28,827 bases of DNA from a virus: positions 64,001-92,827 of the IMG/VR virus record IMGVR_UViG_3300044856_000229; one strand, written 5' to 3'. A model generated the notes under the pieces. That model saw only the letters and a list, made by a program, of their open reading frames with translations. It ran no database searches and was not told where the DNA came from. Both the position numbers and the translations under genes were made by a program. Positions 4,039-23,174 of this stretch are shown here, piece by piece; position 1 is the stretch's first letter; every line of letters begins with the position of its first letter.

Positions 4039-4106
4039 GGATTATTTTGAAAAAAATTGCACAAAATGGGATAAATATTTGCGGAAAAATTTGTGCATTT
4101 TTCCTC

Positions 4107-5125: not shown

Positions 5126-5158
5126 TCTGGGGGAACTCTCAGAAAAATTTTCTGAGAG
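5126..5158. repeat. perfect 15-bp-arm palindrome GGAACTCTCAGAAAA-a-TTTTCTGAGAGTTCC spanning stop codon of NT5C paralog 1
   Basis: The arms are exact reverse complements. The left arm encodes the last residues (GTLRKF) and the TGA stop lies in the right arm. Possible terminator, RNase III site or operator. Confidence 0.6.
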
Positions 5159-6386: not shown

Positions 6387-6461
6387 TTTTGTTTACCCCT
6401 CTTCCTTTATCTTGATTATAGTATATCATAGTTGTGGAAAAATGTCTATAGGCAAATTGCA

Positions 6462-6496
6462 CAAAAAAAAGAGCTGAAATTTCAGCTCTTTTTTCT
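6462..6496. terminator. bidirectional terminator: perfect 20-bp palindrome AGAGCTGAAATTTCAGCTCT flanked by A8/T6
   Basis: Palindrome at 6470-6489. A TTGCACAAAA motif is directly adjacent at 6457-6466. Ends gene 6496..6681. Confidence 0.7.
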
Positions 6497-8293: not shown

Positions 8294-8413
8294 GTCTTTT
8301 TTCTCATATTTTTCTAATTCTTCTTCTATTGCATCATACTCATCGTTAAATAATTCACAAGCATTGATTACACACTGCATGATAAATGTTATCTGTTCTT
8401 TAGTAAATTCCAT
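8279..8413 (-). CDS. small acidic protein, 44 aa (MEFTKEQITFIMQCVINACELFNDEYDAIEEELEKYEKKDLTNE)
   Basis: Unannotated ORF. RBS AAAGGGGAAcaaaaacATG. Promoter at 8445-8473. Confidence 0.4.
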   Translation of the reverse strand: MEFTKEQITFIMQCVINACELFNDEYDAIEEELEKYEKKDLTNE

Positions 8414-8444
8414 GTTTTTGTTCCCCTTTCTTTATCTTGATTAT

Positions 8445-8473
8445 AGTATACTACAAGCCAATAGGTTTGTCAA
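8445..8473 (-). promoter_or_regulatory. sigmaA-type promoter, leftward (TTGACA-17-TATACT)
   Basis: Minus strand reads TTGACA (8473..8468), spacer, then TATACT (8450..8445). Paralogous to the promoter at 1922-1950. Confidence 0.65.
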
Positions 8474-8531
8474 TGTACAAAATAGCCAATTTCGGGAAGC
8501 AAATTATTTAATATTTTGTGCAATTTTCCTC

Positions 8532-8561
8532 TTGACAAACTGCGGCGACCTGTGGTATAAT
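8532..8561 (+). promoter_or_regulatory. rightward extended -10 promoter (TTGACA-18-TGgTATAAT) with upstream GTGCA-N9 element
   Basis: TTGACA at 8532-8537 and TATAAT at 8556-8561. Near-identical core to the copy at 4107-4136. GTGCA ends 9 nt before the -35. Confidence 0.6.
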
Positions 8562-8567
8562 TAGTTG

Positions 8568-8608
8568 GGACAGCAGGCGACCATAGCGGTTGCCCATTTC
8601 TTTTAATA
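8568..8608 (+). ncRNA. candidate short non-coding RNA (about 40 nt) antisense to 3' end of leftward gene 8603..8749
   Basis: Starts GGGACAGCAGG. Hairpin GGCGACCatagcGGTTGCC followed by CATTTCTTTT. Overlaps the stop codon region of the convergent small gene. Confidence 0.3.
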
Positions 8609-8749
8609 CTCTATAATTGTATGCATCAATCGCATCAACTGTTCATTGGTAAACTCTCCCGACTCACAATCTTCACAAAACATAACAGTTAGTGGACTCT
8701 CAAAGCCTAACTGTCTGATTACATTATCCATCATTTCTTTTACTGTCAT
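8603..8749 (-). CDS. small protein, 48 aa (MTVKEMMDNVIRQLGFESPLTVMFCEDCESGEFTNEQLMRLMHTIIEY)
   Basis: Unannotated ORF. RBS AGGAGGtcatgacaATG. An alternative start 2 codons upstream is too close to the RBS. Promoter at 8781-8809. Confidence 0.45.
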   Translation of the reverse strand: MTVKEMMDNVIRQLGFESPLTVMFCEDCESGEFTNEQLMRLMHTIIEY

Positions 8750-8780
8750 TGTCATGACCTCCTTCTCTTAACTTGATTAT

Positions 8781-8809
8781 AGTATACTACAATCAGATTG
8801 ATTTGTCAA
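8781..8809 (-). promoter_or_regulatory. sigmaA-type promoter, leftward (TTGACA-17-TATACT)
   Basis: Minus strand reads TTGACA (8809..8804), spacer, then TATACT (8786..8781). Confidence 0.65.
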
Positions 8810-9045
8810 TAGGAAAATAAAAAATATTTTAAAAATATTTTTGCTTTCCCGCATTAATCCTTTACTACTGGAATGCTGTAGTGTTGCGTTACTTTAACGC
8901 TTTACCACTTTAGTGTAGTGAAGTCTTGCCCTCATTATCTTTGTTATTCTATTAACATTCCTGTTAATTTTTTAACAATCTGCGTCCCACGAACCGCAGA
9001 ACGTAGATAAAGAGAGAACGTTTGTTCTCTCCTCTCTTTATCTCT
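8810..9045. other. 235-bp non-coding block with tandem AAAATATTTT palindromes, multiple short G/C hairpins and inverted repeat TGTTAA-N4-TTAACA
   Basis: No ORF with an RBS. Partly paralogous to 9840-9960 (ACTACTGG(G)AAT(G/C)C..GT and the TGTTAATTTTTTAACAA element). Candidate structured RNA or regulatory region. Confidence 0.35.
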
Positions 9046-9513
9046 TTACACATGATACTGTATTAACTCTTTAAGCACGTCCATCATAACCACAGCATCA
9101 ACACTTGCACCTTGCCACTCTTCTCTATTCCTTGCTTCATCATCGAATAGTATTCCACCACAAGGCACTGCCGCACGTTTATTCTGTCCATACTCTGTTA
9201 CAATAATCTCATTCCAATTAACACTAGGAAGATGCTTCTTTAACCATTTCCTTTTGGCTTCTTCTATTGCTTGCACATAGTCAAGTGTTGCGTCCTTACT
9301 TGCCCATGAGATAACACCTAACTTATAACCTCTTCTCTGTAGTGCATTAATACGCCTTGCAAATAGACTCATAGATACAAGCGGTCTTGCTATCTCATAA
9401 GGCACTATACTACCATGCACCAGATAGTCAAGCCAACCTTCTACACTGTAAAGGTCTGCAATAGTTCCATCTAAATCGAACCACAACCATTTATTATCTA
9501 ACATACTAATCAC
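9046..9513 (-). CDS. HAD-superfamily 5'(3')-deoxyribonucleotidase (NT5C-like), paralog 2
   Basis: FDLDGTIADL (HAD motif I) and WLKKHLP...IIVTEYGQNKRAAV...GILFDDE. About 45% identical to paralog 1 at 5139..5618. The ORF-track start at 9513 is GTG. The ATG at 9504 (MLDNKWLWFDLDGT) is likely the real start. Confidence 0.7.
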   Translation of the reverse strand: MISMLDNKWLWFDLDGTIADLYSVEGWLDYLVHGSIVPYEIARPLVSMSLFARRINALQRRGYKLGVISWASKDATLDYVQAIEEAKRKWLKKHLPSVNWNEIIVTEYGQNKRAAVPCGGILFDDEARNREEWQGASVDAVVMMDVLKELIQYHV

Positions 9514-9545
9514 TCTTTCTTTCTTTTATCTTTATCTTTATATTT

Positions 9546-9574
9546 ATTATAACACCTTTGTGCTTGCTTGTCAA
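9546..9574 (-). promoter_or_regulatory. sigmaA-type promoter, leftward (TTGACA-17-TATAAT)
   Basis: Minus strand reads TTGACA (9574..9569), spacer, then TATAAT (9551..9546). Paralogous to the promoter at 3012-3040. Confidence 0.7.
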
Positions 9575-9635
9575 GACCTTTCTTTGTGTCTTTGTCTTGC
9601 CTCTTGGCTCAAGGGTTAGCCTGAGCTAACCCATC

Positions 9636-9755
9636 CTATGCCAGATAAGTCTCGAGGATAGAGCCACCTACTCTCTTGGCAGTTAGTTCAGCCAAACTTT
9701 TGCTACTTGTCAATAAAACGAATTTTCCCTCTCTATCAATAACCTCATACTTCAT
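9636..9755 (-). CDS. small protein, 39 aa (MKYEVIDREGKFVLLTSSKSLAELTAKRVGGSILETYLA)
   Basis: Unannotated ORF. RBS AAAGAGAGGAAcaaaaacATG. Followed by hairpin GGGTTAGCtcagGCTAACCC. Promoter at 9792-9820. Confidence 0.45.
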   Translation of the reverse strand: MKYEVIDREGKFVLLTSSKSLAELTAKRVGGSILETYLA

Positions 9756-9791
9756 GTTTTTGTTCCTCTCTTTCTCTCTTTCTTTATACAT

Positions 9792-9820
9792 AGTATAGCA
9801 TACAAGTAGCTACTTGTCAA
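9792..9820 (-). promoter_or_regulatory. sigmaA-type promoter, leftward (TTGACA-17-TATACT)
   Basis: Minus strand reads TTGACA (9820..9815), spacer, then TATACT (9797..9792). Confidence 0.65.
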
Positions 9821-9919
9821 GAGGTTTTTATAAATTTTCTTTGTTAATTTTTTAACAAGCGAACTACTGGGAATCGCAGTTTTCGTCACCAACTTACGCT
9901 CCATGAGAGCACCAAATCT

Positions 9920-9948
9920 ATTATACCACAGATGTGCGGTGATGTCAA
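9920..9948 (-). promoter_or_regulatory. leftward extended -10 promoter (TTGACA-17-TGgTATAAT), tandem upstream of 9792-9820
   Basis: Minus strand reads cATTGACAtcaccgcacatctgTGGTATAATag. Resembles the rightward promoters through CTGTGGTATAAT. Confidence 0.55.
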
Positions 9949-9957
9949 TGGGTAACA

Positions 9958-10056
9958 TTGCACAAAGATTGACTACTGATTTTGTGCAATGTGCTGAAAA
10001 TTATTTTTGTGCAAAGTGACGAAATTTGGGAAAAAAATTAAAATATTTTTGTGCAA
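9958..10056. promoter_or_regulatory. array of TTTTGTGCAA motifs (direct copies at 9980-9989, 10005-10014, 10047-10056; inverted copy at 9958-9967) upstream of rightward promoter
   Basis: Exact 10-mer repeats. The last copy is positioned GTGCA-N9-TTGACA, as at the three other rightward promoters. Candidate activator/repressor site or UP-element array. Confidence 0.45.
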
Positions 10057-10064
10057 CTTTTTGC

Positions 10065-10094
10065 TTGACAAATTGTTGTGTCTCGTGTTATAAT
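10065..10094 (+). promoter_or_regulatory. rightward extended -10 promoter (TTGACA-18-TGtTATAAT)
   Basis: TTGACA at 10065-10070 and TATAAT at 10089-10094, with TG at -15/-14. Confidence 0.55.
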
Positions 10095-10100
10095 GGAAAT

Positions 10101-10170
10101 TCGGGCCTGCGCTTGCGTCTACGGCCCGAGGATTTGACGAGAGCGTCATTACTTTTTATGTATTTTTCCC
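10101..10170 (+). ncRNA. candidate short non-coding RNA (GC-rich hairpin GGGCC-15nt-GGCCC, then GACGagaGCGTC + U-tract)
   Basis: No ORF. Structured 5' end followed by a U-rich tail. Lies in the 360-bp non-coding gap 9959-10320. Confidence 0.25.
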
Positions 10171-10320
10171 AGATAAATCTGAAACAAAAGTGAACTTGAG
10201 CCTTGCTATTGGGGGGTATATTTCGTGAAAAAATTTTTTTGATTTTTGAAAATCGTTTTGCTCTGGACAAAACTCTTCTCAAACCCATTTTGAAATTCGA
10301 GTTACGAATAATTTCAGTAT

Positions 10321-10629
10321 TTAATCAAGATTCAAATCTTCTTCTGCAGGGCTTGGATTAGTTGCCCCTTCAATTTGCTTTAAATCCTCAACGTCCTTAT
10401 CCAATTCATCAATATGATCTTTAACCCAATTAGTCAGCTTCAAATATCCAGCATCATTAATTTCAGTAGAGAATCCTCTGAAATCAGTTCGTGCAGGAAA
10501 TCCCGCAATAACATTACCATCATCATCTTGTTCTACAAGTAAACACCAACCAAAAGCATGTAAAAATAAATTAGCATACCACAGTAATCCGCTATCTTTA
10601 AATTCTTTCCAATCTTTAATTTCTATCAT
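10321..10629 (-). CDS. hypothetical acidic protein
   Basis: 102-aa ORF. Strong RBS AAAGGAGataactATG. Preceded by terminator 10648-10693 with no own consensus promoter. Confidence 0.7.
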   Translation of the reverse strand: MIEIKDWKEFKDSGLLWYANLFLHAFGWCLLVEQDDDGNVIAGFPARTDFRGFSTEINDAGYLKLTNWVKDHIDELDKDVEDLKQIEGATNPSPAEEDLNLD

Positions 10630-11096: not shown

Positions 11097-11334
11097 TCTT
11101 TCTATTCTCCTTAATCTTTTTTAATTCATTTTCAATTGATTCTAAAAGTCTAATTGCGGATTCATCATCCAAAAATTCACTAACATTTATTGTATTTGGA
11201 ATTACAATAACATGTTTATCAGAAAACACTTCTGAAACATGTTTAAATACTCCATAAACTTCATCAATACTATTTTCACCAAGAGTATAAGTAATAATTA
11301 CATAATCTCTTTTTTCCTCTGTTTTAATTTTCAT
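11083..11334 (-). CDS. hypothetical protein
   Basis: 83-aa ORF. Start overlaps the stop of 11331..11630 (ATGA), so the two are translationally coupled. Confidence 0.65.
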   Translation of the reverse strand: MKIKTEEKRDYVIITYTLGENSIDEVYGVFKHVSEVFSDKHVIVIPNTINVSEFLDDESAIRLLESIENELKKIKENRKNGKK

Positions 11335-11630
11335 CTTATAATTACCGTCCCATGTTTTCCTTCTCTTCTTAGCCTCTCCAAAACTGGATGGCGGGAATTT
11401 TTTTCATTCATAAATACAATAGCAAAATCAAGTTCTTTAATATAATCATTAAATGAGCCAAAGAAATATCTTTTGCCGGAGCCATTATTTTCTGCCCATT
11501 TATCTCCCAAAGAATTGGGAGAACACACTATATTAAATAAATATGTTCCCTTTATTTCAATAAGCTCATTTAATCTTTTATCCAAAAGATCATAATCATC
11601 AAGTGTGCCTCCAATTATTCCTACATTCAT
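11331..11630 (-). CDS. small Rossmann-like protein, possible SLOG/DUF2493-like (Gly-rich N-terminus VGIIGGT)
   Basis: 99-aa ORF. ATGA overlap with the stop of the Thg1-like gene. Glycine-rich loop near the N-terminus. Family assignment is tentative. Confidence 0.6.
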   Translation of the reverse strand: MNVGIIGGTLDDYDLLDKRLNELIEIKGTYLFNIVCSPNSLGDKWAENNGSGKRYFFGSFNDYIKELDFAIVFMNEKNSRHPVLERLRREGKHGTVIIR

Positions 11631-12484
11631 GCGATTGACTCAATAAAAACTAACTTATCAATATAATCTCTATCTGCCCCTTTGAAAATAGGAATTTCAT
11701 AATCTATTTTCCATTTGCGGCGAACAATTATTCTTTCACCAATTTGCTCTCCAAGATAAACATTTGGCTCTTTAATTGTTTCTTTTTCTTCTGTCTTAAT
11801 GCACGCGGTTCCTCGTTTACATGGAATTGTAAAAGTATTCCAATTAATTCCATACTGAACCATTAGCATATCTTGAATATCATTACAAGTTTTATCTTTA
11901 AGTTTAGCATGCGAGAAATGAGCTTGTCCTACCATCTGAATACTATTCCGCATTGCATCAAGCTGCCGCCAATAAATAAGGTTTGTTACTTCTTCTTTTG
12001 GAATATTAAAACATCTTGCGTCAAACATTGCTCCTTTTTCTGCGGCATTTACATATCTTTCAATAAGTCTTTTATTTTCCTCTATAAGAGGATCATAAGT
12101 TGAATTATATTTAATTATATTCTCAGAAAAATATTTATTAAAAGCCACTGTTGCCATAGAAGCTGATATAGAAGCCATTTTCTGGACCTCATAATTAAAC
12201 CAAGCCTCTGAAGTTAACTTTTGGTAATCAGTTAAAATCAAAGTAATTTCATCTGACTGAGTATATCCAAAAATACAACCCTGAATATTTTCACAAAGAT
12301 GCTTCATTGTTCTTTGCATTGTATCCATTAACACAGGGTCAAATGGTTTTTGAAAACCTCGTGTAAAAGTATGAAAAGCTTTTCCATCAATCCTAATAGC
12401 TACTGGCATGCGGCGAAGTAATTGCGTTTTTGCGGGATTTTCATAAAAATCTTTCATTCTTGCGGCAAGTTCACTATTATCCAT
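11627..12484 (-). CDS. Thg1-like protein (tRNA-His guanylyltransferase family, 3'-5' nucleotidyltransferase)
   Basis: Motifs match Thg1 in order: VAIRIDGKAFHTF (Thg1 VVVRLDGRNFHRF), KPFD, YTQSDEITL (Thg1 YGQSDEYSF), QKMASISAS and YWRQLDA (Thg1 SWRQADC). RBS AAGGAAGaaaaATG. Confidence 0.8.
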   Translation of the reverse strand: MDNSELAARMKDFYENPAKTQLLRRMPVAIRIDGKAFHTFTRGFQKPFDPVLMDTMQRTMKHLCENIQGCIFGYTQSDEITLILTDYQKLTSEAWFNYEVQKMASISASMATVAFNKYFSENIIKYNSTYDPLIEENKRLIERYVNAAEKGAMFDARCFNIPKEEVTNLIYWRQLDAMRNSIQMVGQAHFSHAKLKDKTCNDIQDMLMVQYGINWNTFTIPCKRGTACIKTEEKETIKEPNVYLGEQIGERIIVRRKWKIDYEIPIFKGADRDYIDKLVFIESIA

Positions 12485-12518: not shown

Positions 12519-12848
12519 TTATAATTTAATTTTTAAATTTTGTCCATTCTGATCTTTTATTGAGATTTCTGTGCGGTTTTCAGTAAGATTTGTTTCTTTT
12601 AAGAACCAATGCCATACATGAGGTTCTTCAATTGTGGTTCCAATATATTGGGTATTTTCTAACACTTTTTCGGGAATCGGCTGTCCTGTTCCAATAGGAT
12701 TCACAAAGAAACTTCTAATAGGAGCTGCAGTATCAGTTAAAGCCCAAAGATAAGTGCGGCCATTCATTTCTTTTACATCAAGAAATTTAATAAGCGGTAA
12801 TTCAAGTACTCCAATATCATTTAAACAATATTTAAGAATTCTTTTCAT
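12519..12848 (-). CDS. hypothetical protein (109 aa)
   Basis: RBS AGAGGAtaaacttaATG. Overlaps the 3' end of the AbrB-like gene by 17 nt. Confidence 0.65.
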   Translation of the reverse strand: MKRILKYCLNDIGVLELPLIKFLDVKEMNGRTYLWALTDTAAPIRSFFVNPIGTGQPIPEKVLENTQYIGTTIEEPHVWHWFLKETNLTENRTEISIKDQNGQNLKIKL

Positions 12849-13098
12849 TAAGTTTATCCTCTAATTTTTCTGGAATTTCTGCGCCAATTTCTTCAAGAAT
12901 TGATTTTGCGGCTAAGAATTTTGGGTCTACTCCATCGGCAATAGATAAAGCAATATACATTTTACCATCTAAATCAAATGTAAAAAATTCAAGCTCTTCA
13001 TTATCTCGCATAAACATTCTATCTCTTAATCCTTTTGGAAGAGTAATTCTTCCCAATGAATCTAATCTTCTTCTTGCGTTTTCTGGTCTTAATATCAT
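12832..13098 (-). CDS. AbrB/SpoVT/MazE-fold DNA-binding protein
   Basis: N-terminal LDSLGRITLPKGLRDRMFM matches the swapped-hairpin AbrB-N motif (VDELGRVVIPIELRRTLGI). 88 aa. RBS AAGGAGataaaataATG. Confidence 0.7.
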   Translation of the reverse strand: MILRPENARRRLDSLGRITLPKGLRDRMFMRDNEELEFFTFDLDGKMYIALSIADGVDPKFLAAKSILEEIGAEIPEKLEDKLNEKNS

Positions 13099-13110: not shown

Positions 13111-13347
13111 TTAATTAAATTTAATATTATTATCATCATCGCTACCATCCCAATTACTACCCATTAAAATATCTAATATCCATGTAGCAATATTAGAGAT
13201 GAAAAATGCGGGTGCTGTTATTAAAAATATTATGAGTACAATTAACATTTCTACCCAGCCTATTTGATACAGCGAATCCGCAGATTGTATAGCCAAAGAT
13301 AAAAACATAAGTAACCATAAAATATAAATAACTATTATTAAAGTCAT
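13111..13347 (-). CDS. small membrane protein (2 TM)
   Basis: 78-aa ORF. RBS AAAGAGGAtacaaatATG. First gene after promoter 13386-13414. Confidence 0.65.
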   Translation of the reverse strand: MTLIIVIYILWLLMFLSLAIQSADSLYQIGWVEMLIVLIIFLITAPAFFISNIATWILDILMGSNWDGSDDDNNIKFN

Positions 13348-13385: not shown

Positions 13386-13414
13386 ATAATATCAAAAAAT
13401 TTTAATGTTGTCAA
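13386..13414 (-). promoter_or_regulatory. sigmaA-type promoter, leftward (TTGACA-17-TATTAT), divergent partner of 13420-13448
   Basis: Minus strand reads TTGACA (13414..13409). The two -35 boxes are back-to-back: TTGTCAAagaatTTGACT. Confidence 0.6.
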
Positions 13415-13419: not shown

Positions 13420-13448
13420 TTGACTTTGTCCAAGATTTGCGATATAAT
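13420..13448 (+). promoter_or_regulatory. sigmaA-type promoter, rightward (TTGACT-17-TATAAT) for the morphogenesis arm
   Basis: TTGACT at 13420-13425, a 17-nt spacer, then TATAAT at 13443-13448. This is 24 nt upstream of the RBS GGAGGtaaactATG of gene 13472. Confidence 0.65.
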
Positions 13449-13471: not shown

Positions 13472-14581
13472 ATGATTAAATTAGACTATACTATACAAAC
13501 TCCAGAAGAAAGAAACGAACTAGTGAAAAAAATTTTAGAAGAAACTCCTGACCCTAGTGAGAGATATTTAGAAATTTTGGCTGACTACCTCGTTCTTTGT
13601 ATGGAGAAACAAGAGAAGAAGCAGAAACAAATTTTAACAGAAAATCGAATGACAACTGTTAATAAGAGAGAAACTTCTTATGAAGGTCTTGTTTCCCAAT
13701 TAGAAAATGGCGAAGATGGTATCTATAACCTAATAAATGAAAGTAAAACAACAATATTTCAACCAAAAGTGACAATAACAAAAAAAGATTTAGAAGAAAT
13801 ACCTTATTTAAGACAATTACGTGATGCTATCAATAGTTGGGAAATAAAACTTAAAAAAGCGCAAGGGCGCGATGCGTATATAATTAAAAAAGCATTGATT
13901 GAAATGCGTAAAGACCAATATGTAATAAAAAATGCTTACCGCAAGCCTATTATCTTTAATAAAATTAGTCGTTCTAATTTTGCGTCTAGATTGGTTGAAG
14001 ATTTTATATTAGATGAAAATAATTATATTGTTCCTAGTGGGGTTTCTTTATGTAGTCCTACAGTTTGTTCATTAATTCTTTGTAATTATTCGCAACTTAA
14101 AGAAGAGAGCTGGGGAAAATTTGAAGGTGATTTATGGTACCTTATGGAATCATTTGATAAAATATCTACAGACGCTTTAAAAGAATACCCATTATATGAA
14201 GAAATAGTAAAATGTAAAATAGATGGACTACAAAATATAGAAATACAGAAAATATTAAAAGAAAAGTATGATACAACTCATAGCTTAGAATATATTTCTA
14301 GCTTATGGAGGAAAAAGATTCCAAATCTTATTGCCTCAAAAGCAGAGGACGTAGAATTAAGTTGGTATTTTTTAAATACTGAAAAAGGTAAATATAAAAG
14401 ATGCAGTCGATGCGGGAAAATTAAACTTGCTCATAATAAATATTTTAGTAAAAATAAAACTAGCAAGGATGGTTGGTATTCCATTTGTAAAGAATGTAGA
14501 AATAAAAAAATAAGGACAAAAAGAAATAGACTTTCTTTATCCTTTTATAAAGGAGGTATAATTTATGGCAACAAATACTGA
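13472..14581 (+). CDS. hypothetical protein with C-terminal zinc ribbon (CSRC-x20-CKEC)
   Basis: 369-aa ORF. Basic tail. First gene of the rightward arm. Confidence 0.75.
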   Translation: MIKLDYTIQTPEERNELVKKILEETPDPSERYLEILADYLVLCMEKQEKKQKQILTENRMTTVNKRETSYEGLVSQLENGEDGIYNLINESKTTIFQPKVTITKKDLEEIPYLRQLRDAINSWEIKLKKAQGRDAYIIKKALIEMRKDQYVIKNAYRKPIIFNKISRSNFASRLVEDFILDENNYIVPSGVSLCSPTVCSLILCNYSQLKEESWGKFEGDLWYLMESFDKISTDALKEYPLYEEIVKCKIDGLQNIEIQKILKEKYDTTHSLEYISSLWRKKIPNLIASKAEDVELSWYFLNTEKGKYKRCSRCGKIKLAHNKYFSKNKTSKDGWYSICKECRNKKIRTKRNRLSLSFYKGGIIYGNKY

Positions 14582-15773
14582 TACATTTTTCTGTGATAAA
14601 TGCCAACGTACTATGAGAGGAACTGAATTTTATGGTTCTAATAATTTAGAAAAATATCCAGAAGGTAAGTTGCATCAATGTAAGAAATGTCTTACAATGC
14701 ATGTAGATAATTGGGATTCTAGTACTTATATGTGGATATTAGAAGAATGCGATGTGCCTTATATTCCAGAAGAATGGAATAAATTATTACAAAAATATGC
14801 AAGTGAAGGTAAAACAATTACTGGAACGACAATTATTGGTCGCTATCTTGCAAAGATGAAATTAAAACAATTTAGAGATTATCGTTTTAAAGATACAGAG
14901 TTTCTTCAACAGATGGCTGACCATAAAGTAGAAGAAACTATGAAGCGGCAAGGATATGAAGCTGCGGAAATTGCTAAGGTTATTGAGCAAAGTCATATTT
15001 CGGCGCCAGAAAGACCAACCCCTCCGCCACTTACTATTCCAAATAGCAATAATACAGATAGTGTGTCTTTAGGCACAGAAGATTATTTTGCAGAACAAAA
15101 TTCTGAATATGATATTGATATTGCGGCAGACCTTACAGATGATGATAAACGCTATTTATTACTTAAATGGGGTAAATCTTATACACCAGAAGAATGGGTT
15201 AAACTTGAACAGCTCTACAACGAAATGATGCAATCTTACGATATTCAATCTGCGGGTCATATTGATAACTTAAAACTTCTGTGTAAAACTTCATTAAAAT
15301 CTAATCAGCTTCTGGATATAGGCGATGTAGATGGCGCGCAAAAAATGCTTCGTATGTATGATTCTTTAATGAAATCAGGTAAATTTACTGCGGCACAGAA
15401 CAAAGCTGAAAGTGGTGAATATGTAGATTCTATTTCAGAACTTGTAGCTATTTGTGAAAAAGAAGGATTTATACCTAGATATTATATTGATCAGCCAGGA
15501 GATAGAGTAGATGAAACTATTGCAGATTTAAAAGGTTATACTCATTCGCTTGTTGTTGATGAAATGAATCTTGGTAATCTGATTGAAAGTGCTGTTAAAA
15601 CTATGGCTCGTGAAGAAGCTAAAGAAGAAGACGAAGATATTGAAGATGAAATTATGAGCCTTGAAGATGTAGACCAGCTAAAAGATGAAGATTTTGAAGA
15701 ATTTAATGAATTTGAAGAAGATGAAGAAAAAGCCTCAGAAGAAGCAATGAAAGAATATCTTGAGGAGGACTAA
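14565..15773 (+). CDS. hypothetical protein with N-terminal zinc ribbon (CDKC-x21-CKKC) and acidic C-terminal tail
   Basis: 402-aa ORF. RBS AAAGGAGGtataatttATG. Overlaps the upstream gene by 17 nt. C-terminus of about 60 aa is D/E-rich. Could be a packaging accessory or small-terminase-like protein. Confidence 0.75.
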   Translation: MATNTDTFFCDKCQRTMRGTEFYGSNNLEKYPEGKLHQCKKCLTMHVDNWDSSTYMWILEECDVPYIPEEWNKLLQKYASEGKTITGTTIIGRYLAKMKLKQFRDYRFKDTEFLQQMADHKVEETMKRQGYEAAEIAKVIEQSHISAPERPTPPPLTIPNSNNTDSVSLGTEDYFAEQNSEYDIDIAADLTDDDKRYLLLKWGKSYTPEEWVKLEQLYNEMMQSYDIQSAGHIDNLKLLCKTSLKSNQLLDIGDVDGAQKMLRMYDSLMKSGKFTAAQNKAESGEYVDSISELVAICEKEGFIPRYYIDQPGDRVDETIADLKGYTHSLVVDEMNLGNLIESAVKTMAREEAKEEDEDIEDEIMSLEDVDQLKDEDFEEFNEFEEDEEKASEEAMKEYLEED

Positions 15774-15775
15774 TT

Positions 15776-17506
15776 ATGGCATTACAAGATTTATTAGCTC
15801 TCTCTCAATCCAGAGATAAAATTGGTTTATCTGAGGAACGTGTTAATGCTATTATTCCAGTAGCAAGACAATATATAAGTTTCTGGAGAGAATATCCAGA
15901 TATTTTTATTGACTTTTTATTAAAAGACCGAAATCCGCAAAACTTTAAATTCTTCTTCTATCAAAGAGTATTCTTGCGGATTTGTATGCGTCATCAATAT
16001 GTATATGCGGTTTTCCCACGTGCATATTCAAAATCTTTTTTATCTATGATGGTATTAATGTGCCGTTGTGTATTATATCCTGGATGTAAACTATTTGTTA
16101 CTTCTGGTGGTAAAGAGCAGGCTGCGGCAATCGTAAAAGAAAAAGTTCAAGAGATTTGTACACTGATACCCGCATTTAAAAGTGAAATTGATTGGAATCG
16201 TGGCGTAACTCTTGAGGGTAAAGATTATTGTAAGTATGTATTTAAAAATGGTTCATATTTTGATAATATTGCGGCTAGGGAAAGTTCACGTGGTAAACGT
16301 CGTCATGGCGGACTTATAGAAGAATGCGTAGGTGTTGATGGAAAGATATTGAGTGAAGTTATCATTCCAACAATGAACATTTCCCGTATGTGTATGGATG
16401 GATCTACTCATCCTGAAGAGCAACTTAATAAAAGTCAGGTTTATATTACAACTGCAGGATATAAAAATACATACCCTTATGACAAATTGATTCAGCTATT
16501 GGTATGGCAGATAGTTAAACCAGAAAAATCAATGATAATGGGCGGTACATATCGTATTCCTGTATTAGTTAAATTGCTTGATAAGAATTTTATTAAAGAC
16601 CTAAAAATGGATGGTACTTTTAATGAAAGTTCTTTTGCTCGTGAATATGAATCTGTTTGGTCTGGTACTATTGAGGATGCTTTCTTTAGTTCTGAAGCAT
16701 TTGACCGCAATAGAATTCTTAAACAACCGGAAAAAGAAGCCTCTGGTCGTTCAAGCAAAAATGCCTATTATATATTATCTATGGATGTTGGTCGTAAAGG
16801 TTGCGATTCTGTAGTGTGCGTAATTAAAGTAACTCCACGTTCTCAGGATGTATCTATGAAACAATTAGTTAATATTTATACATTTCACGATGACCATTTT
16901 GAAGACCAAGCCATTAAAGTAAAACGTTTATTCTATAGATATAGAGCCCGCAGATTAATTATTGATGCTAATGGTATTGGTATTGGACTTATGGATTATT
17001 TAGTTAAATCTCAAATTGATCCAGATACTAATGAATTTTTTGCGGATTTTGGTGTCTATAATGATGAAGAAAAATTTTATAAGAAGTTTCAAACTGTTGA
17101 TTGTGAACAAGATGCGATATATATGATAAAAGCGAACGCACCTATAAATACAGAAGCGCATGCTAATATGCAGTCACAGCTTTCTTCTGGTAAAATTAAA
17201 TTCCTTGAAGATGAACGTATAGCAAAAACTAAATTACTTGGTACTAAAATGGGGCAGACAATGACTCCAGAAAAACGTGCAGAATACTTAAGGCCTTTTA
17301 CATTAACTTCTATTCTTAAAGAAGAACTTATGAACCTTCGTGAAGAAAATGAAGGAGTTAATATTATCCTTAAACAAGCTAACAGATCAATTAAAAAAGA
17401 TAAATTTTCCGCACTTGAATATGGTTTATATTATATAAAAACAGAAGAAGATTCAAAGAAGAAGAAAAAACGTTTTAATGCAAGTGAATGGAAATTCTTT
17501 AATTAA
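15776..17506 (+). CDS. putative terminase large subunit
   Basis: 576 aa, directly upstream of the portal-like gene. N-terminal ATPase-like region and C-terminal nuclease-like segment with Asp-containing strand ILSMDVGRKG. Motifs are deviant, so the call rests mainly on size and synteny. Confidence 0.5.
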   Translation: MALQDLLALSQSRDKIGLSEERVNAIIPVARQYISFWREYPDIFIDFLLKDRNPQNFKFFFYQRVFLRICMRHQYVYAVFPRAYSKSFLSMMVLMCRCVLYPGCKLFVTSGGKEQAAAIVKEKVQEICTLIPAFKSEIDWNRGVTLEGKDYCKYVFKNGSYFDNIAARESSRGKRRHGGLIEECVGVDGKILSEVIIPTMNISRMCMDGSTHPEEQLNKSQVYITTAGYKNTYPYDKLIQLLVWQIVKPEKSMIMGGTYRIPVLVKLLDKNFIKDLKMDGTFNESSFAREYESVWSGTIEDAFFSSEAFDRNRILKQPEKEASGRSSKNAYYILSMDVGRKGCDSVVCVIKVTPRSQDVSMKQLVNIYTFHDDHFEDQAIKVKRLFYRYRARRLIIDANGIGIGLMDYLVKSQIDPDTNEFFADFGVYNDEEKFYKKFQTVDCEQDAIYMIKANAPINTEAHANMQSQLSSGKIKFLEDERIAKTKLLGTKMGQTMTPEKRAEYLRPFTLTSILKEELMNLREENEGVNIILKQANRSIKKDKFSALEYGLYYIKTEEDSKKKKKRFNASEWKFFN

Positions 17507-17533
17507 GACAAAAATGTTGGGTAAAATATGTTT

Positions 17534-17568
17534 ATTGCTACTATTAATTTTTCAATAATAGTAGCAAT
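17534..17568. repeat. perfect 13-bp inverted repeat ATTGCTACTATTA-9nt-TAATAGTAGCAAT upstream of endonuclease gene
   Basis: The arms are exact reverse complements. Lies in the 85-bp gap between terminase and the endonuclease, with no T-run after it. Confidence 0.6.
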
Positions 17569-17591
17569 GAAAAGCGAAAGGAGGATAATAG

Positions 17592-17948
17592 ATGCGCGCT
17601 TCTAGAGGAGAAATAAAGATAGAAGAAATATTACAAAATGCAGAATTAAATTTTAAAGAAGAATATATATTCCCAGAACTTAAAAGCTCTAGTGGTAGAC
17701 CATTACGTTTTGATTTTGTTGTATTTGATGATGATGGTAAAATTGATTTTCTTATTGAATATCAGGGTAAACAACATTATGAAGCAAGTTCAAAATTTGG
17801 CGGAAAAAGAGGATTATATCAACAGCAATTTAATGATAATAAAAAACGTAGATTTTGTGCTTTACATGGACTTACTTTAATAGAAATTCCTTATACAGAA
17901 GAACATCTTATATCCTACGATTATATAATGGAAAAAGCTGGATATTAA
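17592..17948 (+). CDS. DUF559/Vsr-like PD-(D/E)xK endonuclease (putative homing endonuclease)
   Basis: FDFVVFDDDGKIDFLIEYQGKQH fits the D...IE(V/L)DG.QH core of DUF559/Vsr-like nucleases. C-terminal D..KKRRF..LHGLTLIEIPY matches the D..R...L...G..V.R block. RBS GAAAGGAGGataatagATG. Confidence 0.6.
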   Translation: MRASRGEIKIEEILQNAELNFKEEYIFPELKSSSGRPLRFDFVVFDDDGKIDFLIEYQGKQHYEASSKFGGKRGLYQQQFNDNKKRRFCALHGLTLIEIPYTEEHLISYDYIMEKAGY

Positions 17949-17962
17949 GGAGGTAATTGGTC

Positions 17963-19594
17963 TTGATAGATAGACAAAGACAAGAACAAATTCGCTCCAA
18001 AGGCTTTAGTATAGTAGATACAAGACGTGGAAATGAAGCACCAATAGAGTATGGAAGAATTAAAGTTGGAACTAAAACATTAGATGATGCTACTTTAAAT
18101 TTAGGTTCTCTTAAAAAAATTAATCCAACATATGCAGATAAGCGCTGGATTTTAAGAGCTTTAGCAGAAAATAATGTTCCAGTTCTTCGTGAAATTTCTA
18201 ATTACTTTTATAGAACTAGTGGTATATACTCTCGAGTATGCAATTATATTGCTACTCTATATAGATATGATTGGTATATTGTACCAGAGGTTTTAGACGA
18301 TAAAATTAAAGAAGAAAAAATTTTAAAAGAATTTAATTATCTTTTAGATTATCTTGATAATACTCATATTAAAAAAATGTGTGCGGATATAGCTTTAGCA
18401 GTCGTCAAAGATGGTGCATACTATGGCTATTTGGTAGATGGAACAGATGGTTTGATGCTTCAACAGTTGCCTATTAACTATTGTCGTTCTAGATATAACG
18501 TTGGTATGAATCCCGCTGTTGAATTTAATATGAAATTTTTTGATGACCATTTTAGGGATATTAATTATCGTATGAGAGTTCTTAGAATGTTTCCAAAAGA
18601 GTTTCAAAAGGGCTATTTACTTTATAAGCAAGGTAAATTACCAGTAGATAATATGATGGATCCTTTTGGAACTTGGTACTTACTTGACCCAGAATCAACT
18701 GTTAAATTTAATTTTAATAATAATGATATTCCAATGTTTGTAAATGCTATTCCAAATTTACTTGATTTGGATGCAGCTCAGGATTTAGACCGCCGCAAGC
18801 AAATGCAACAATTATTAAAAATTGTTATTCAAAAACTTCCATTAGATAAAAATGGAGATTTAATTTTTGACGTTGATGAAGCTAGGGATATACATAATAA
18901 TGCGGTTGAAATGCTTTGCCGTGCTATTGGTGTAGATGTATTAACTACATTTGCAGACGTTAGTGTAGAAGATATGTCAGATAGTAATACTACCACTACT
19001 AAAGACGATTTGGAAAAAGTAGAAAGAACATTATTTAATTCTCTTGGTATTTCTCAGAATATTTTTAATACTGATGGTAATTTATCTCTAGAGAAATCTA
19101 TTTTAAATGATGAAGCAACTACTAGAAATATTCTTTTACAATTTCATATATTCTTTGATAGGATTACTCGTGCTAAGTGTAGTAATAAAAGAAAATTTGT
19201 GTTTAAATTTTTTATGCTAGAAACTACTCAATATAATTATCAAACCTTATCTAAAATGTATAAAGAACAGGTACAAATTGGTTATTCTAAAATGCTACCA
19301 CAAATTGCACTTGGACATTCTCAAAGTTCTATTATCCATACAGCTCATTTTGAAAATGAAGTATTACATTTGAGTTCTATTATGATTCCACCATTAATGA
19401 GTTCTACATTAAATGGAGAAGATATTTTGGGCACAAACAAACAAGATAATACAAATAAAAATCAAAATAATACGACAAATAATTCTGGAAAAAATATTAA
19501 TCAAAAACAGTCTAGTGGTGAAGCCGGTAGACCAGAAAAAGATGATAGCCAAAAAAGTGAAAAAACAATTCAGAATCGTGAATCAATGAGCTAG
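17963..19594 (+). CDS. putative portal protein
   Basis: About 543 aa, immediately after terminase. TTG start at 17963 is 8 nt after AAGGAGG. The ORF-track TTG at 17957 is too close to the RBS. Q/N/S-rich disordered C-terminal tail. The call rests on position and size. Confidence 0.45.
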   Translation: MIDRQRQEQIRSKGFSIVDTRRGNEAPIEYGRIKVGTKTLDDATLNLGSLKKINPTYADKRWILRALAENNVPVLREISNYFYRTSGIYSRVCNYIATLYRYDWYIVPEVLDDKIKEEKILKEFNYLLDYLDNTHIKKMCADIALAVVKDGAYYGYLVDGTDGLMLQQLPINYCRSRYNVGMNPAVEFNMKFFDDHFRDINYRMRVLRMFPKEFQKGYLLYKQGKLPVDNMMDPFGTWYLLDPESTVKFNFNNNDIPMFVNAIPNLLDLDAAQDLDRRKQMQQLLKIVIQKLPLDKNGDLIFDVDEARDIHNNAVEMLCRAIGVDVLTTFADVSVEDMSDSNTTTTKDDLEKVERTLFNSLGISQNIFNTDGNLSLEKSILNDEATTRNILLQFHIFFDRITRAKCSNKRKFVFKFFMLETTQYNYQTLSKMYKEQVQIGYSKMLPQIALGHSQSSIIHTAHFENEVLHLSSIMIPPLMSSTLNGEDILGTNKQDNTNKNQNNTTNNSGKNINQKQSSGEAGRPEKDDSQKSEKTIQNRESMS

Positions 19595-19604
19595 GGGGAT
19601 AATA

Positions 19605-21155
19605 ATGCATACAAGTGTTCAATTAGAAACACCATGCGAAATTATTAATGTTGTTCCACTTAATCCTCTAATCTCTAAATGTCAGATTAAAGTTTGCTAT
19701 GTTGGGGATGACCCAAACCGCAATAATTCTGTCATTACAAAAGAAGTAGCTAGACAGATGGCTAATTCTTTACCAGGAAGTCCAATTGTAGGTTTTTACA
19801 ATGAGGCTTCTGGAGATTTTGAGGAACATAATAGAAGCATTGATATTTCTAATGGGAAAATTGTTGTACGTGATACAACTAGACCTTATGGATTCGTCGA
19901 CTTGAATGCTAGAGTTTGGTTTCAGAAATATCTTGATGATGGTAAATATGAAAGAGAATATTTAGTAACTGAAGGATATTTATGGACTGGACAATACCCT
20001 GAATGTCAACGAATTATTGATAATGGCAATAATGAATCTATGGAATTAGATAATGATAGTTTAGATGGAACTTGGACAAATTCTAATAATGGAAAACCTA
20101 AACTTTTTATTATTAATGAGGCAATAGTATCTAAACTATGCGTTTTAGGTGAAAATTATGAACCGTGTTTTGAAGGTTCTAATATAACACCTACTCATTT
20201 TTCTTTTGATAATGGATTTAAACATAAAATTTATTCCATGATGCAAGAATTAAAAGAATTAAAAACTATTATAAATAATAATAAAGGAGGAACACAAGTG
20301 TTTACTAAATATTCAGTAACAGTTGGCGATAATCTGTGGAATCAACTTTATAGTAATATTGATAATGAAAATTATTCTCTGTCTAATGTATTACTTGAAG
20401 GTAACCAGTTATTTGCTGTTCTTCAAAGTCGTTCTGATGATTCTAAATATTCTCGTATGAACTTTAGTTTAAATGAGGGTAAAGTAGAAAATATGTCTGA
20501 AGTCGAAGAGATGGCAGGATTTGTTCCATTAGCTGAAACTCAGTTTGCACAAGCTGATGTTGAAGCATTTGAAGCTTCTTTTAAGAAGAAAAAAGAAGAA
20601 GACGAGGACAAAAATAAACAAACAAAAGACCCTAATTCTGATAAAAATACAGAAGGAAGTACTTCAAAATCTGATGATAATAAAGATGGTGAAGGTGAAG
20701 GGGATAATAAATCAAATCCAGATGATGATGAAGATGAGAAAAAGAAAAAGAAAGGTAAATATAATCTTGAAGAAATTCCAGAATATGTTGAACTTTCTAA
20801 TAAATATTCCGCACTTCAAACCGATTATGATTCTCTAAAAACTGAAGTTGAAAGTTTAAGAACATTCAAACTTTCAAGCGAAAGAACTCAGAAACAAGAG
20901 ATGATTGATAAATTTTATATGTTATCAGATGAGGATAAAAAAGATGTTACAGATAACATTGATAAATATTCTCTTGATGATATTGAAGCAAAACTTTCTG
21001 TAATTTGTGTTCGTAATAAAGTTAATTTTAACTTAGATGATGAACATAAGGATACTCCACCAACTACATTTAATTTCAATGGTGAAGAATTTGATGACGT
21101 GTCAACTCCAGCCTGGGTAAAAGCAGCAATGGAAGTTGAGAAAGAAATGAAATAA
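19605..21155 (+). CDS. putative scaffolding or prohead protease-scaffold fusion protein
   Basis: 516 aa, between portal and capsid candidates. Central K/E/D low-complexity stretch (KKKKEEDEDKNKQTKD...DDDEDEKKKKKGK) flanked by coiled-coil-like segments. Confidence 0.4.
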   Translation: MHTSVQLETPCEIINVVPLNPLISKCQIKVCYVGDDPNRNNSVITKEVARQMANSLPGSPIVGFYNEASGDFEEHNRSIDISNGKIVVRDTTRPYGFVDLNARVWFQKYLDDGKYEREYLVTEGYLWTGQYPECQRIIDNGNNESMELDNDSLDGTWTNSNNGKPKLFIINEAIVSKLCVLGENYEPCFEGSNITPTHFSFDNGFKHKIYSMMQELKELKTIINNNKGGTQVFTKYSVTVGDNLWNQLYSNIDNENYSLSNVLLEGNQLFAVLQSRSDDSKYSRMNFSLNEGKVENMSEVEEMAGFVPLAETQFAQADVEAFEASFKKKKEEDEDKNKQTKDPNSDKNTEGSTSKSDDNKDGEGEGDNKSNPDDDEDEKKKKKGKYNLEEIPEYVELSNKYSALQTDYDSLKTEVESLRTFKLSSERTQKQEMIDKFYMLSDEDKKDVTDNIDKYSLDDIEAKLSVICVRNKVNFNLDDEHKDTPPTTFNFNGEEFDDVSTPAWVKAAMEVEKEMK

Positions 21156-21175
21156 ATTTTTAAGGAGGATATATA

Positions 21176-21955: not shown

Positions 21956-21973
21956 TAAGGGGGGAAGAAGATA

Positions 21974-23080: not shown

Positions 23081-23110
23081 TCTATACTCGGTAATTTAAT
23101 ATAAAAAACT

Positions 23111-23152
23111 GGGGGAGAGGGAGAAGCTTCCCTCTCCCCTTATTTTTATTTG
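23111..23152 (+). terminator. rho-independent terminator (GGGGAGAGGGA-gaagct-TCCCTCTCCCC + TTATTTTTATTT)
   Basis: Perfect 11-bp G/C-rich stem with a T-run. Confidence 0.8.
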
Positions 23153-23174
23153 AGATAAAGGAGATATAATATAT

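What the first reader, a model, noticed from the sequence alone, without database searches (positions are those of the whole stretch)
12519..13098. AbrB/MazE-fold protein overlapping a downstream 109-aa ORF (regulator or antitoxin-like pair)
The 88-aa protein has a clear AbrB-N swapped-hairpin motif (LDSLGRITLPKGLRDRM). Its 3' end overlaps by 17 nt the start of a 109-aa protein of unknown fold. This layout is typical of MazE-MazF-like toxin-antitoxin pairs. The 109-aa protein lacks MazF/PemK motifs, so it may be a novel partner. Alternatively the AbrB-like protein is a phage transcription regulator, perhaps binding the recurrent TTTTGTGCAA motif, which would also fit a Bacillus or Clostridium host.
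Basis: partly seen in the sequence, partly recalled or inferred. Interest (0 to 1): 0.55.

Follow-up and report, generated by a model that had tools for sequence, protein, structure and literature searches.

The report
Phage AbrB-type regulator beside DUF7352 gene
Two small overlapping genes in the early operon of a large gut phage of Firmicutes encode an AbrB/SpoVT-type DNA-binding protein and a member of a widespread phage family of unknown function (DUF7352); they look like ordinary operon neighbours, not a toxin-antitoxin pair.

Summary
On the minus strand, an 88-aa ORF (12832-13098) and a 109-aa ORF (12519-12848) overlap by 17 nt. Both are under purifying selection.

The toxin-antitoxin reading fails three tests:
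- The pair has no promoter of its own. It sits inside a longer sigma-A-driven early operon.
- DUF7352 lacks an AbrB neighbour in at least 10 independent phage contexts.
- AbrB homologues lack DUF7352 nearby in 24 of 29 further loci, where the downstream gene varies.

Adjacency with the 17-nt overlap does recur in three diverged sublineages of one SPbeta-like phage group, so a lineage-specific partnership is not excluded.

Most likely this is a phage early transcription regulator next to an independent accessory gene. The TTTTGTGCAA motif is real and marks promoters, but its link to the AbrB-like protein is untested. Interest is low.

The parts
12832..13098 (-). 88-aa AbrB/SpoVT-type protein. 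The swapped-hairpin N-domain spans about residues 9-53. Two predicted C-terminal helices span 59-71 and 77-87.
   Evidence: PDB SpoVT E=1.3e-4. The family profile hits only SpoVT, AbrB and Abh. TIGR01439 E=8.6e-5. AF2 pLDDT is 81.5. Top Foldseek PDB hits are SpoVT, AbrB and Abh, ahead of MazE. The motif PENxxRxxDxLGRITLPKGLRDR is invariant or nearly so across 18 homologues. dN/dS is 0-0.08.
12519..12848 (-). 109-aa DUF7352 protein. The all-beta core is residues 1-86, followed by a variable C-terminal tail (87-109).
12832..12848 (-). 17-nt overlap between the end of the AbrB-like gene and the start of the DUF7352 gene (ATGAAAAGAATTCTTAA).
   Evidence: The same 17-nt overlap is present in L001-3, L012/13 and L020/21. 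It follows from the conserved DUF7352 N-terminus MKRI(L/F)KY, whose CTT-AAA or TTT-AAG codons contain the upstream gene's TAA stop in the other frame.
13111..13347 (-). 78-aa membrane protein with an acidic C-terminal tail. It is the first gene of the operon and ends 12 nt before the AbrB-like gene.
   Evidence: Homologues with the tail PEGWD(D/N)(D/E)D precede the AbrB-like gene in L004, L007, L040, L049, L053 and L062.
13386..13414 (-). Sigma-A/sigma-70-type promoter of the leftward operon: TTGACA, 17 nt, TATTAT, with TG before the -10. It lies back to back with the rightward promoter at 13420-13448 (TTGACT, 17 nt, TATAAT).
   Evidence: The promoter, including its spacer and the first transcribed bases, is conserved in L001, L004, L007, L010, L012, L020 and L022.
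11627..12484 (-). Next gene downstream: a Thg1-like tRNA(His) guanylyltransferase. It is separated by 34 nt with no terminator, and a promoter-like site lies at 12546-12518.
   Evidence: Pfam Thg1 E=2.6e-31. phrog_4717 E=1.5e-84. Promoter and terminator scan.

Best explanation
The 88-aa gene encodes a phage transcription regulator of the AbrB/SpoVT (swapped-hairpin) class. It is the second gene of an early operon in a large (about 90-190 kb), SPbeta-like siphophage of gut Firmicutes, and a consensus host sigma-A promoter drives the operon.

By analogy with AbrB and SpoVT, two N-domains should interlock into a beta-barrel that contacts DNA through conserved arginines (R10, R17, R25, R27). The two C-terminal helices should provide higher-order assembly. 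The likely targets are phage promoters or host genes.

The 109-aa gene that overlaps its end encodes DUF7352. This is a separate, small all-beta accessory protein that is widespread in phages and sits in early and DNA-metabolism gene clusters. My best guess is that it binds a host or phage macromolecule during take-over.

The 17-nt overlap gives translational coupling of the kind common in compact phage operons. The two genes are not a toxin-antitoxin module.

Shown: the fold and family assignments, the operon layout, and the lack of obligatory co-occurrence. Inferred: DNA binding, the regulatory role, early timing, and any role of DUF7352.
For: AbrB/SpoVT identity:
- Searches support it.
- The family profile finds only the transcription factors SpoVT, AbrB and Abh in the PDB, and no MazE, VapB or PrlF antitoxin at E<=1.
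- The alignment to SpoVT shows the arginines of the DNA-binding loops retained.
- The N-terminal 28 residues are almost invariant across homologues of 43-100% identity. dN is 0 over dS of 0.12-0.14. This fits a conserved nucleic-acid target.

Operon layout:
- The order is promoter, membrane-protein gene, 12 nt, AbrB gene, 17-nt overlap, DUF7352 gene, 34 nt, Thg1 gene. There is no terminator.
- The promoter is conserved across the lineage.

Independence of the two genes:
- Of 29 further AbrB-like loci, 24 have no DUF7352 within 2.5 kb, and their downstream genes differ.
- In L004-6 and L037-38 a Cys-rich gene lies between the two.
- L007-11 and L062 have AbrB without DUF7352.
- DUF7352 without AbrB: next to a UvrD-type helicase and gyrase B; near PolA; in L018 and L022; and in Sphingomonas phage Carli, Pseudomonas JG012, Roseobacter RDJL Phi 1, Gordonia Fury and a Flavobacterium phage.

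DUF7352 is not a known toxin:
- A profile search of the PDB finds nothing.
- PADLOC finds nothing.

Phage AbrB-domain transcription factors are already described (PMC7824862; PMC10294663).
Against: - AbrB-DUF7352 adjacency with the same 17-nt overlap is kept in three sublineages whose DUF7352 proteins share only about 30-35% identity: the window group, L012/13 and L020/21. This could reflect a functional link rather than inherited gene order.
- The window protein itself is below the curated Pfam and TIGRFAM cut-offs.
- The monomer model has a low pTM of 0.49.
- No operator was identified. DNA binding, timing of expression and targets are all inferred.
- The function of DUF7352 is unknown. The only hints are weak: fusion to DarA_C in 4 of 150 representatives, and a higher dN/dS than its neighbours.
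Confidence: 0.6

Rival explanations
1. A toxin-antitoxin or antitoxin-like pair. The AbrB-like protein would neutralise, or be controlled by, DUF7352 through its C-terminal helices and would autoregulate transcription. DUF7352 would be a new kind of toxin or effector.
For: - The upstream AbrB-fold gene overlaps a small downstream gene by 17 nt, which is the classic type II layout.
- The same adjacency and overlap occur in three diverged sublineages.
- phrog_4681 'antitoxin' matches at E=8.5e-6, and a JGI annotation calls a 91%-identical homologue PrlF-like.
- The AbrB-like protein has a 35-residue C-terminal extension that could bind a partner.
Against: - There is no promoter between the upstream membrane-protein gene and the AbrB gene (12-nt gap). 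The pair is embedded in a longer operon.
- DUF7352 occurs alone in at least 10 independent phage contexts, directly after a helicase gene in some.
- 24 of 29 AbrB-like loci lack DUF7352, and their downstream genes vary.
- In two sublineages a gene is inserted between the two.
- The AbrB-like family profile matches transcription factors, not antitoxins.
- The predicted C-terminus is helical at pLDDT 84-90, not disordered as in MazE.
Confidence: 0.1
2. Host hijacking. The AbrB-like protein mimics the host's AbrB or SpoVT, or forms mixed oligomers with them. This would reprogramme transition-state or sporulation genes of a spore-forming gut Firmicute rather than regulate phage genes. DUF7352 plays no part.
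For: - The closest solved relatives are SpoVT and AbrB themselves.
- Gut phages are reported to carry homologues of the sporulation regulators spoVT and abrB (PMC10294663).
- The host is probably a member of Clostridia or Bacilli.
- The DNA-contact region is extremely conserved across phages whose own promoters differ.
Against: - Identity to SpoVT and AbrB is limited to about 40 residues.
- The C-terminal part is unrelated to the AbrB C-domain or the SpoVT GAF domain.
- The fourth DNA-binding arginine of AbrB (R24, recalled from the literature) aligns with an aspartate here (alignment).
- The host is not identified, so neither its regulon nor its capacity to sporulate is known.
Confidence: 0.2
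3. The AbrB-like protein is the factor that recognises the promoter-associated TTTGTGCA(A/T) element. It would activate or repress a class of phage promoters spread over the leftward region.
For: - The motif has 7 exact copies against 0.24 expected.
- Each copy lies upstream of a sigma-A-like promoter, typically 7-19 nt before the -35 hexamer where one is recognisable.
- The motif is conserved across the lineage that carries the AbrB-like gene: L007, L032 and L033.
- In L033, where the AbrB-like protein has diverged, the motif variant differs (TTTTGTGCAT).
Against: - There is no direct evidence of any kind.
- The motif could equally be an UP-like element, or the site of a host factor or another phage protein such as the 369-aa sigma-like protein.
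- The operon's own promoter lacks an exact copy.
- L022 has the motif but no AbrB-like gene in the 6 kb held.
- As far as I recall, known AbrB sites have no such compact consensus.
Confidence: 0.15

Closest known systems
Bacillus subtilis transition-state regulators AbrB, Abh and SpoVT (N-terminal swapped-hairpin domain; Pfam PF04014 / TIGR01439)
   Same: The N-terminal 45 residues align with D-x-LGR-(V/I)-x-(I/L)-P-K-x-(I/L)-R and share the predicted beta-alpha-beta-beta topology. These are the best sequence and structure matches in the PDB. Total size is similar to AbrB (88 aa against about 94).
   Different: The C-terminal half (two helices) shows no detectable similarity to the AbrB C-domain or the SpoVT GAF domain. 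The motif reads LRDRM instead of LRRTL. The gene is phage-encoded in an early operon. The window protein alone is below the curated family cut-offs.
MazE, PrlF and VapB AbrB-fold antitoxins of type II toxin-antitoxin systems
   Same: Same superfamily fold. A small gene overlaps a downstream small gene. phrog_4681 'antitoxin' matches at E=8.5e-6.
   Different: MazE structures rank far below SpoVT and AbrB in Foldseek (E 0.6-1.3) and are absent from the profile search at E<=1. The downstream gene is not MazF, PIN or YhaV, nor any known toxin fold. There is no autonomous promoter and no obligatory co-occurrence.
Pfam DUF7352 (PF24043) / phrog_3848, small phage proteins of unknown function
   Same: Full-length match above the cut-off. 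The conserved K6, W35, G53-T54-G55, T71 and V78-W79-H80 are present. The predicted fold is the same as DUF7352 proteins of cultured phages.
   Different: This protein has a 23-residue C-terminal tail that most members lack. Its position 28 is Met, where 90% or more of members have Gln. In this lineage only, it is overlapped by an AbrB-like gene.
AbrB-fold transcription factors of archaeal viruses and plasmids (C68 of pSSVx, C56 of pSSVi)
   Same: Small, virus-encoded, swapped-hairpin DNA-binding proteins. They appear among the structural matches.
   Different: The matches are weak (E 0.4-0.6), the hosts are archaea, and no sequence similarity is detectable.

Membership tests
SpoVT/AbrB swapped-hairpin superfamily (PF04014, TIGR01439) | Significant match to the family sequence profile | tested here: inconclusive
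   The window protein scores 18.2 bits on PF04014 (cut-off 24.7) and 22.2 bits on TIGR01439 (cut-off 28.3), so it is below both. Nine homologues of 43-80% identity carry precomputed PF04014 hits. A profile of the family hits SpoVT, AbrB and Abh at E 4e-6 to 1e-4.
SpoVT/AbrB swapped-hairpin superfamily (PF04014, TIGR01439) | N-domain topology with a short helix followed by a beta-hairpin, superposable on AbrB-N or SpoVT-N | tested here: met
   The AF2 model has a helix at 22-27 and strands at 36-43 and 46-53. Top Foldseek PDB hits are SpoVT, AbrB-N and Abh-N with probability 0.99-1.0, but E-values are only 5e-3 to 0.25.
SpoVT/AbrB swapped-hairpin superfamily (PF04014, TIGR01439) | Homodimer with interleaved hairpins forming the DNA-binding barrel | not testable with these tools
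   Only single-chain prediction was available, and the model's pTM is 0.49.
SpoVT/AbrB swapped-hairpin superfamily (PF04014, TIGR01439) | Conserved arginines of the DNA-contact loops (AbrB R8, R15, R23, R24; positions recalled from the literature) | tested here: inconclusive
   In the alignment, R10, R17 and R25 align with the first three. The fourth aligns with D26, and an invariant R27 follows.
Type II toxin-antitoxin module (MazEF-like) | Autonomous two-gene operon with its own autoregulated promoter | tested here: not met
   The AbrB gene starts 12 nt after the upstream gene. The strong promoter (13414-13386) precedes that upstream gene. Thg1 follows after 34 nt with no terminator.
Type II toxin-antitoxin module (MazEF-like) | The downstream protein belongs to, or folds like, a known toxin family | tested here: not met
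Type II toxin-antitoxin module (MazEF-like) | The two partners co-occur as neighbours wherever either is found | tested here: not met
   24 of 29 AbrB-like loci have no DUF7352 within 2.5 kb. At least 10 DUF7352 contexts have no AbrB-like ORF. Adjacency is limited to three sublineages of one phage group.
Type II toxin-antitoxin module (MazEF-like) | Toxicity of the toxin and neutralisation by the antitoxin | not testable with these tools
   This needs an expression experiment.
Pfam DUF7352 (PF24043) | Match above the gathering score over the whole domain | tested here: met
   50.8 bits against a cut-off of 27, covering residues 1-85 on profile positions 1-90 of 97.
Pfam DUF7352 (PF24043) | Family-invariant residues (W35, T54, G55, T71, H80; nearly invariant K6, L23, Q28, G53, V78, W79) | tested here: met
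   All are present except Q28, which is Met in the window protein.

The most novel reading that the evidence does not exclude
In this SPbeta-like lineage of gut phages, the AbrB-like protein and DUF7352 form a true two-component unit. DUF7352 might be a co-regulator or anti-repressor that docks on the C-terminal helices of the AbrB-like protein, or a new toxin or effector held in check by it. Either would give the first functional handle on a phage protein family with hundreds of clusters and no known fold or role.
Probability: 0.1. Interest if true: 0.5.

Novelty: new member of a known kind. Interest (0 to 1): 0.2.

Why it matters
As it stands, the finding matters little. AbrB-domain regulators are already known in phages, and DUF7352 is a catalogued family of unknown function. 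The useful outcome is negative: the tempting toxin-antitoxin annotation should not be carried over to this gene. PHROGs and one JGI annotation already label relatives of the 88-aa protein 'antitoxin'.

Two things deserve modest attention:
- DUF7352 is a widespread phage-only family whose confidently predicted all-beta fold has no counterpart among solved structures. A structure or an interaction screen would therefore be informative.
- This phage lineage has a clear promoter class marked by TTTGTGCA(A/T). An early-expressed AbrB-type protein is one obvious candidate for the factor that reads it.

Tried and rejected
- Megablast of 3.6 kb around the locus against cultured phages found nothing.
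- tblastn of the 88-aa protein against cultured phages found nothing at E<=1e-3. tblastn of the 109-aa protein found a single weak hit, Sphingomonas phage Carli. A consensus DUF7352 query was needed to find 43 records.
- The search for related loci with the diverse DUF7352 alignment failed, because no stretch was conserved enough.
- The afdb50 fold library was not available.
- A literature search for 'DUF7352' returned zero papers.
- PADLOC and NCBIfam gave nothing for the 109-aa protein.
- Large proteins hit by phmmer (P0032, P0092, P0116, P0160) turned out to be fn3, LRR or WD40 proteins with no Pfam DUF7352 match, so I set them aside as not informative.
- The palindrome GTCAAA-N3-TTTGAC in the divergent promoter region is not an operator candidate. 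It is simply two back-to-back -35 hexamers, and it is not kept where the two promoters lie apart (L012, L020).
- An Rfam scan (gathering threshold over the whole window, E-value mode over 8300-10400) and a tRNA scan found no known RNA.
- Folding the transcribed GC-rich segments gave z-scores of only -1.4 to -1.6.
- A complex prediction could not be run.

Full report
**1. What is in the sequence**

Both ORFs lie on the minus strand. The 88-aa ORF is 12832..13098 and the 109-aa ORF is 12519..12848. They share 17 nt, 12832..12848. Each has its own Shine-Dalgarno site: AGGAG before the first ATG, and GAGGA 9 nt before the second.

They are not a stand-alone pair.
- A 78-aa membrane-protein gene (13111..13347) ends 12 nt before the 88-aa gene.
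- A Thg1-like tRNA(His) guanylyltransferase gene (11627..12484) follows the 109-aa gene after 34 nt. Its matches are Pfam 2.6e-31 and phrog_4717 1.5e-84.
- No terminator-like site separates any of these genes.
- The only near-consensus promoter upstream is TTGACA-17-TATTAT at 13414..13386, with TG before the -10. It lies back to back with TTGACT-17-TATAAT (13420..13448), which drives the rightward genes: a sigma-like protein, a YonG_N protein, terminase, portal and so on.

**2. The 88-aa protein**

It matches the SpoVT N-domain (2ro5) at E=1.3e-4 over residues 9-49. It matches TIGR01439 'AbrB family' at 8.6e-5 and Pfam PF04014 at 0.0024. The TIGR01439 and Pfam scores are below the curated cut-offs.

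Twenty homologues were found, and nine carry a precomputed PF04014 hit. In an alignment of 18 of them, P-E-N-x-x-R-x-x-D-x-L-G-R-I-T-L-P-K-G-L-R-D-R is invariant or nearly so, although overall identity falls to 43%.

A profile of this alignment hits only SpoVT, AbrB and Abh (4e-6 to 1.2e-4) and one archaeal AbrB-like protein in the whole PDB. It hits no MazE, VapB or PrlF antitoxin at E<=1.

The AF2 model has pLDDT 81.5. It shows a short helix, a beta-hairpin and two C-terminal helices. Its best PDB matches by Foldseek are SpoVT, AbrB and Abh, and MazE entries rank much lower.

Against relatives with dS of 0.12-0.14 there is not one amino-acid change.

**3. The 109-aa protein**

It is a member of Pfam DUF7352 (50.8 bits, cut-off 27) and of phrog_3848.

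An exhaustive HMMER search found 434 representative clusters at E<=1e-3. Nearly all are stand-alone proteins of 85-95 aa. The conserved positions are K6, L23, Q28, W35, G53-T54-G55, T71 and V78-W79-H80. The window protein has Met at position 28 and an extra, fast-evolving 23-residue tail.

Foldseek against viral models recovered DUF7352 proteins from cultured phages of Bacillus (AR9), Mycobacterium, Gordonia, Pantoea, Burkholderia, Pseudomonas, Vibrio and Microbacterium. A consensus tblastn found 43 cultured-phage records, all annotated as hypothetical.

Four of the 150 listed representatives are about 160 aa long with the DUF7352 match in their C-terminal half. The two scanned against Pfam carry an N-terminal DarA_C domain. 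DarA belongs to the phage P1 anti-restriction system (PMC5512222). This is a weak hint at most.

No paper in the library mentions DUF7352.

**4. Are the two genes a unit?**

Contexts were collected in both directions.

Starting from DUF7352:
- An AbrB-like gene directly upstream with the same 17-nt overlap is found in the window group (L001-3), in L012/13 and in L020/21.
- In L004-6 a 93-aa Cys-rich gene lies between them.
- No AbrB-like ORF is present near DUF7352 in the following loci:
  - L014-17, where DUF7352 directly follows a UvrD-type helicase gene and precedes gyrase B;
  - L018/19;
  - L022/23, although this is the same phage lineage;
  - L024, near PolA;
  - Sphingomonas phage Carli;
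  - Pseudomonas phage JG012;
  - Roseobacter phage RDJL Phi 1;
  - Gordonia phage Fury, between a helicase gene and Cas4 and RecA genes;
  - a Flavobacterium phage.

Starting from the AbrB-like protein, I examined 28 IMG/VR loci and one Lachnospiraceae MAG locus:
- 3 have DUF7352 overlapping. All three are near-identical to the window.
- 2 have it one gene away.
- 24 have none within 2.5 kb.
- In those 24 the downstream gene varies: 107-112 aa, a 60-aa membrane protein, 94-99 aa, or 143-168 aa. The upstream membrane protein with the acidic PEGWDxxD tail is usually kept.

All AbrB-plus-DUF7352 contexts belong to one phage group. That group is defined by the divergently transcribed sigma-like (phrog_5767) and YonG_N genes and by SPbeta-like structural genes (YonB, YonD_N).

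The 17-nt overlap itself is explained by the conserved DUF7352 N-terminus MKRI(L/F)KY. Its codons contain the upstream gene's TAA stop in the other frame.

**5. Interpretation**

The toxin-antitoxin reading fails every defining feature that could be tested: an autonomous promoter, a recognisable toxin, and obligatory co-occurrence. PADLOC also gives nothing.

The better reading has two parts. The 88-aa protein is an AbrB/SpoVT-type transcription regulator made from a host-type early promoter. DUF7352 is an independent accessory gene that happens to follow it in some members of one lineage.

AbrB-domain transcription factors in large phages, and spoVT or abrB homologues in gut phages, have already been reported (PMC7824862; PMC10294663).

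What the regulator binds is not known. Its very high conservation would fit either conserved phage promoters or a host regulon.

The recurrence of the overlapping arrangement in three sublineages with only about 30-35% DUF7352 identity keeps a lineage-specific partnership alive at roughly 10%.

**6. Host and phage**

The portal protein matches an uncultured human-gut phage fragment (55%) and Phage Phass-1 (39%). It also matches Enterococcus phages EF1, H1 and VRE9 (29%), and then phages of Bacillus, Clostridioides, Lactococcus, Brevibacillus and Mammaliicoccus. The sigma-like protein gives the same picture.

Related contigs are 90-195 kb long. One AbrB homologue lies on a 65-kb contig of a Lachnospiraceae MAG.

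**7. The TTTTGTGCAA motif**

The motif has seven exact copies against 0.24 expected, and none of 100 shuffles reached 7. Every copy, plus a one-mismatch copy, sits upstream of a sigma-A-like promoter. Where a -35 TTGACA hexamer is recognisable it lies 7-17 nt downstream of the motif, and all copies are followed by an extended -10.

Relatives carry ATTTGTGCAA (L032, about 10 copies in 20 kb), TTTTGTGCAT (L033) or the same motif (L007). These copies are again upstream of promoters, with the -35 either about 8-9 or about 19 nt away, which is one helical turn apart.

So the motif is a lineage-wide promoter element centred near -50. The operon that encodes the AbrB-like protein lacks an exact copy. 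Nothing available here can link the motif to the AbrB-like protein.

**8. Verdict**

This is a new member of known kinds: a phage AbrB-type regulator and a DUF7352 protein. Interest is low (0.2).

Noticed in passing
window 2125-2134(-), 4057-4066(-), 6457-6466(-), 8514-8523(+), 9980-9989(+), 10005-10014(+), 10047-10056(+), 9958-9967(-, 1 mismatch); also L007, L032, L033: TTTTGTGCAA is a promoter-associated element. Every copy lies upstream of a sigma-A-like promoter with an extended -10, typically 7-19 nt before a -35 TTGACA where one is recognisable. Variants (ATTTGTGCAA, TTTTGTGCAT) mark many promoters in related phages, with the -35 about 8-9 or about 19 nt away. It looks like the site of an activator or an UP-like element that defines a promoter class.
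   Followed up: partly
window 9513-10321: An 800-bp stretch has no ORF of 60 aa or more. It holds four motif copies and at least four consensus promoters on both strands (10065-10094 +, 9948-9920 -, 9820-9792 -, 9574-9546 -). At least one small ORF lies here: about 39 aa, MKYEVIDREGKF..., on the minus strand within 9590-9912. No Rfam family or tRNA was found, and folding z-scores were only about -1.5.
   Followed up: partly
window 11627-12484(-) and 11331-11630(-): A phage-encoded Thg1-like tRNA(His) guanylyltransferase (a 3'-5' polymerase that can repair tRNA 5' ends) lies directly downstream of the DUF7352 gene. A 99-aa protein follows it. That protein's relatives in L004 and L032 sit next to a YAcAr/SLOG-like paralogue. 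Thg1 is reported as sporadic in large phages (PMC7824862).
   Followed up: no
window 13472-14581(+): The 369-aa protein at the head of the rightward (structural) operon matches phrog_5767 'sigma factor' (4.9e-48). It has a C-terminal Cys-rich segment resembling endonuclease VII / HNH zinc ribbons (phrog_1035 and phrog_2255, residues about 300-353). Relatives in L001 and L003 have a different, shorter C-terminal end (352 aa).
   Followed up: no
window 14565-28200(+); L032 1-8525: The structural genes are SPbeta-like (Pfam YonG_N, YonD_N, YonB in relatives). The closest named relative, Phage Phass-1, is filed under the 'Caudoviricetes code 15 clade' of recoded phages. The window's structural genes read as long ORFs in the standard code, so this phage does not appear to be recoded.
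   Followed up: no
L032 18367-18681(+): A related phage carries a second, stronger AbrB/MazE-family gene (104 aa, PF04014 at 44.6 bits) about 8 kb downstream of the first. This lineage can therefore hold more than one AbrB-fold protein. No second copy was detected in the window.
   Followed up: partly
window 13111-13347(-); L004, L007, L040, L049, L053, L062: The first gene of the operon encodes a small two-helix membrane protein ending in an acidic PEGWD(D/N)(D/E)D-like tail. It is more constant next to the AbrB-like gene than DUF7352 is. In some relatives a FolD homologue (methylene-THF dehydrogenase/cyclohydrolase) or a Cys-rich protein lies between them.
   Followed up: no
window 9046-9513(-) and 5139-5618(-): Two paralogous genes both match phrog_2643, a 5'-3' deoxyribonucleotidase (E about 1e-10 to 1e-11).
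   Followed up: no
window 12519-12848(-), residue 28: The window's DUF7352 protein has Met where 90% or more of family members have Gln. Its C-terminal tail evolves faster than the core: dN 0.14 against 0.03-0.04 in comparison with L001 and L003.
   Followed up: partly
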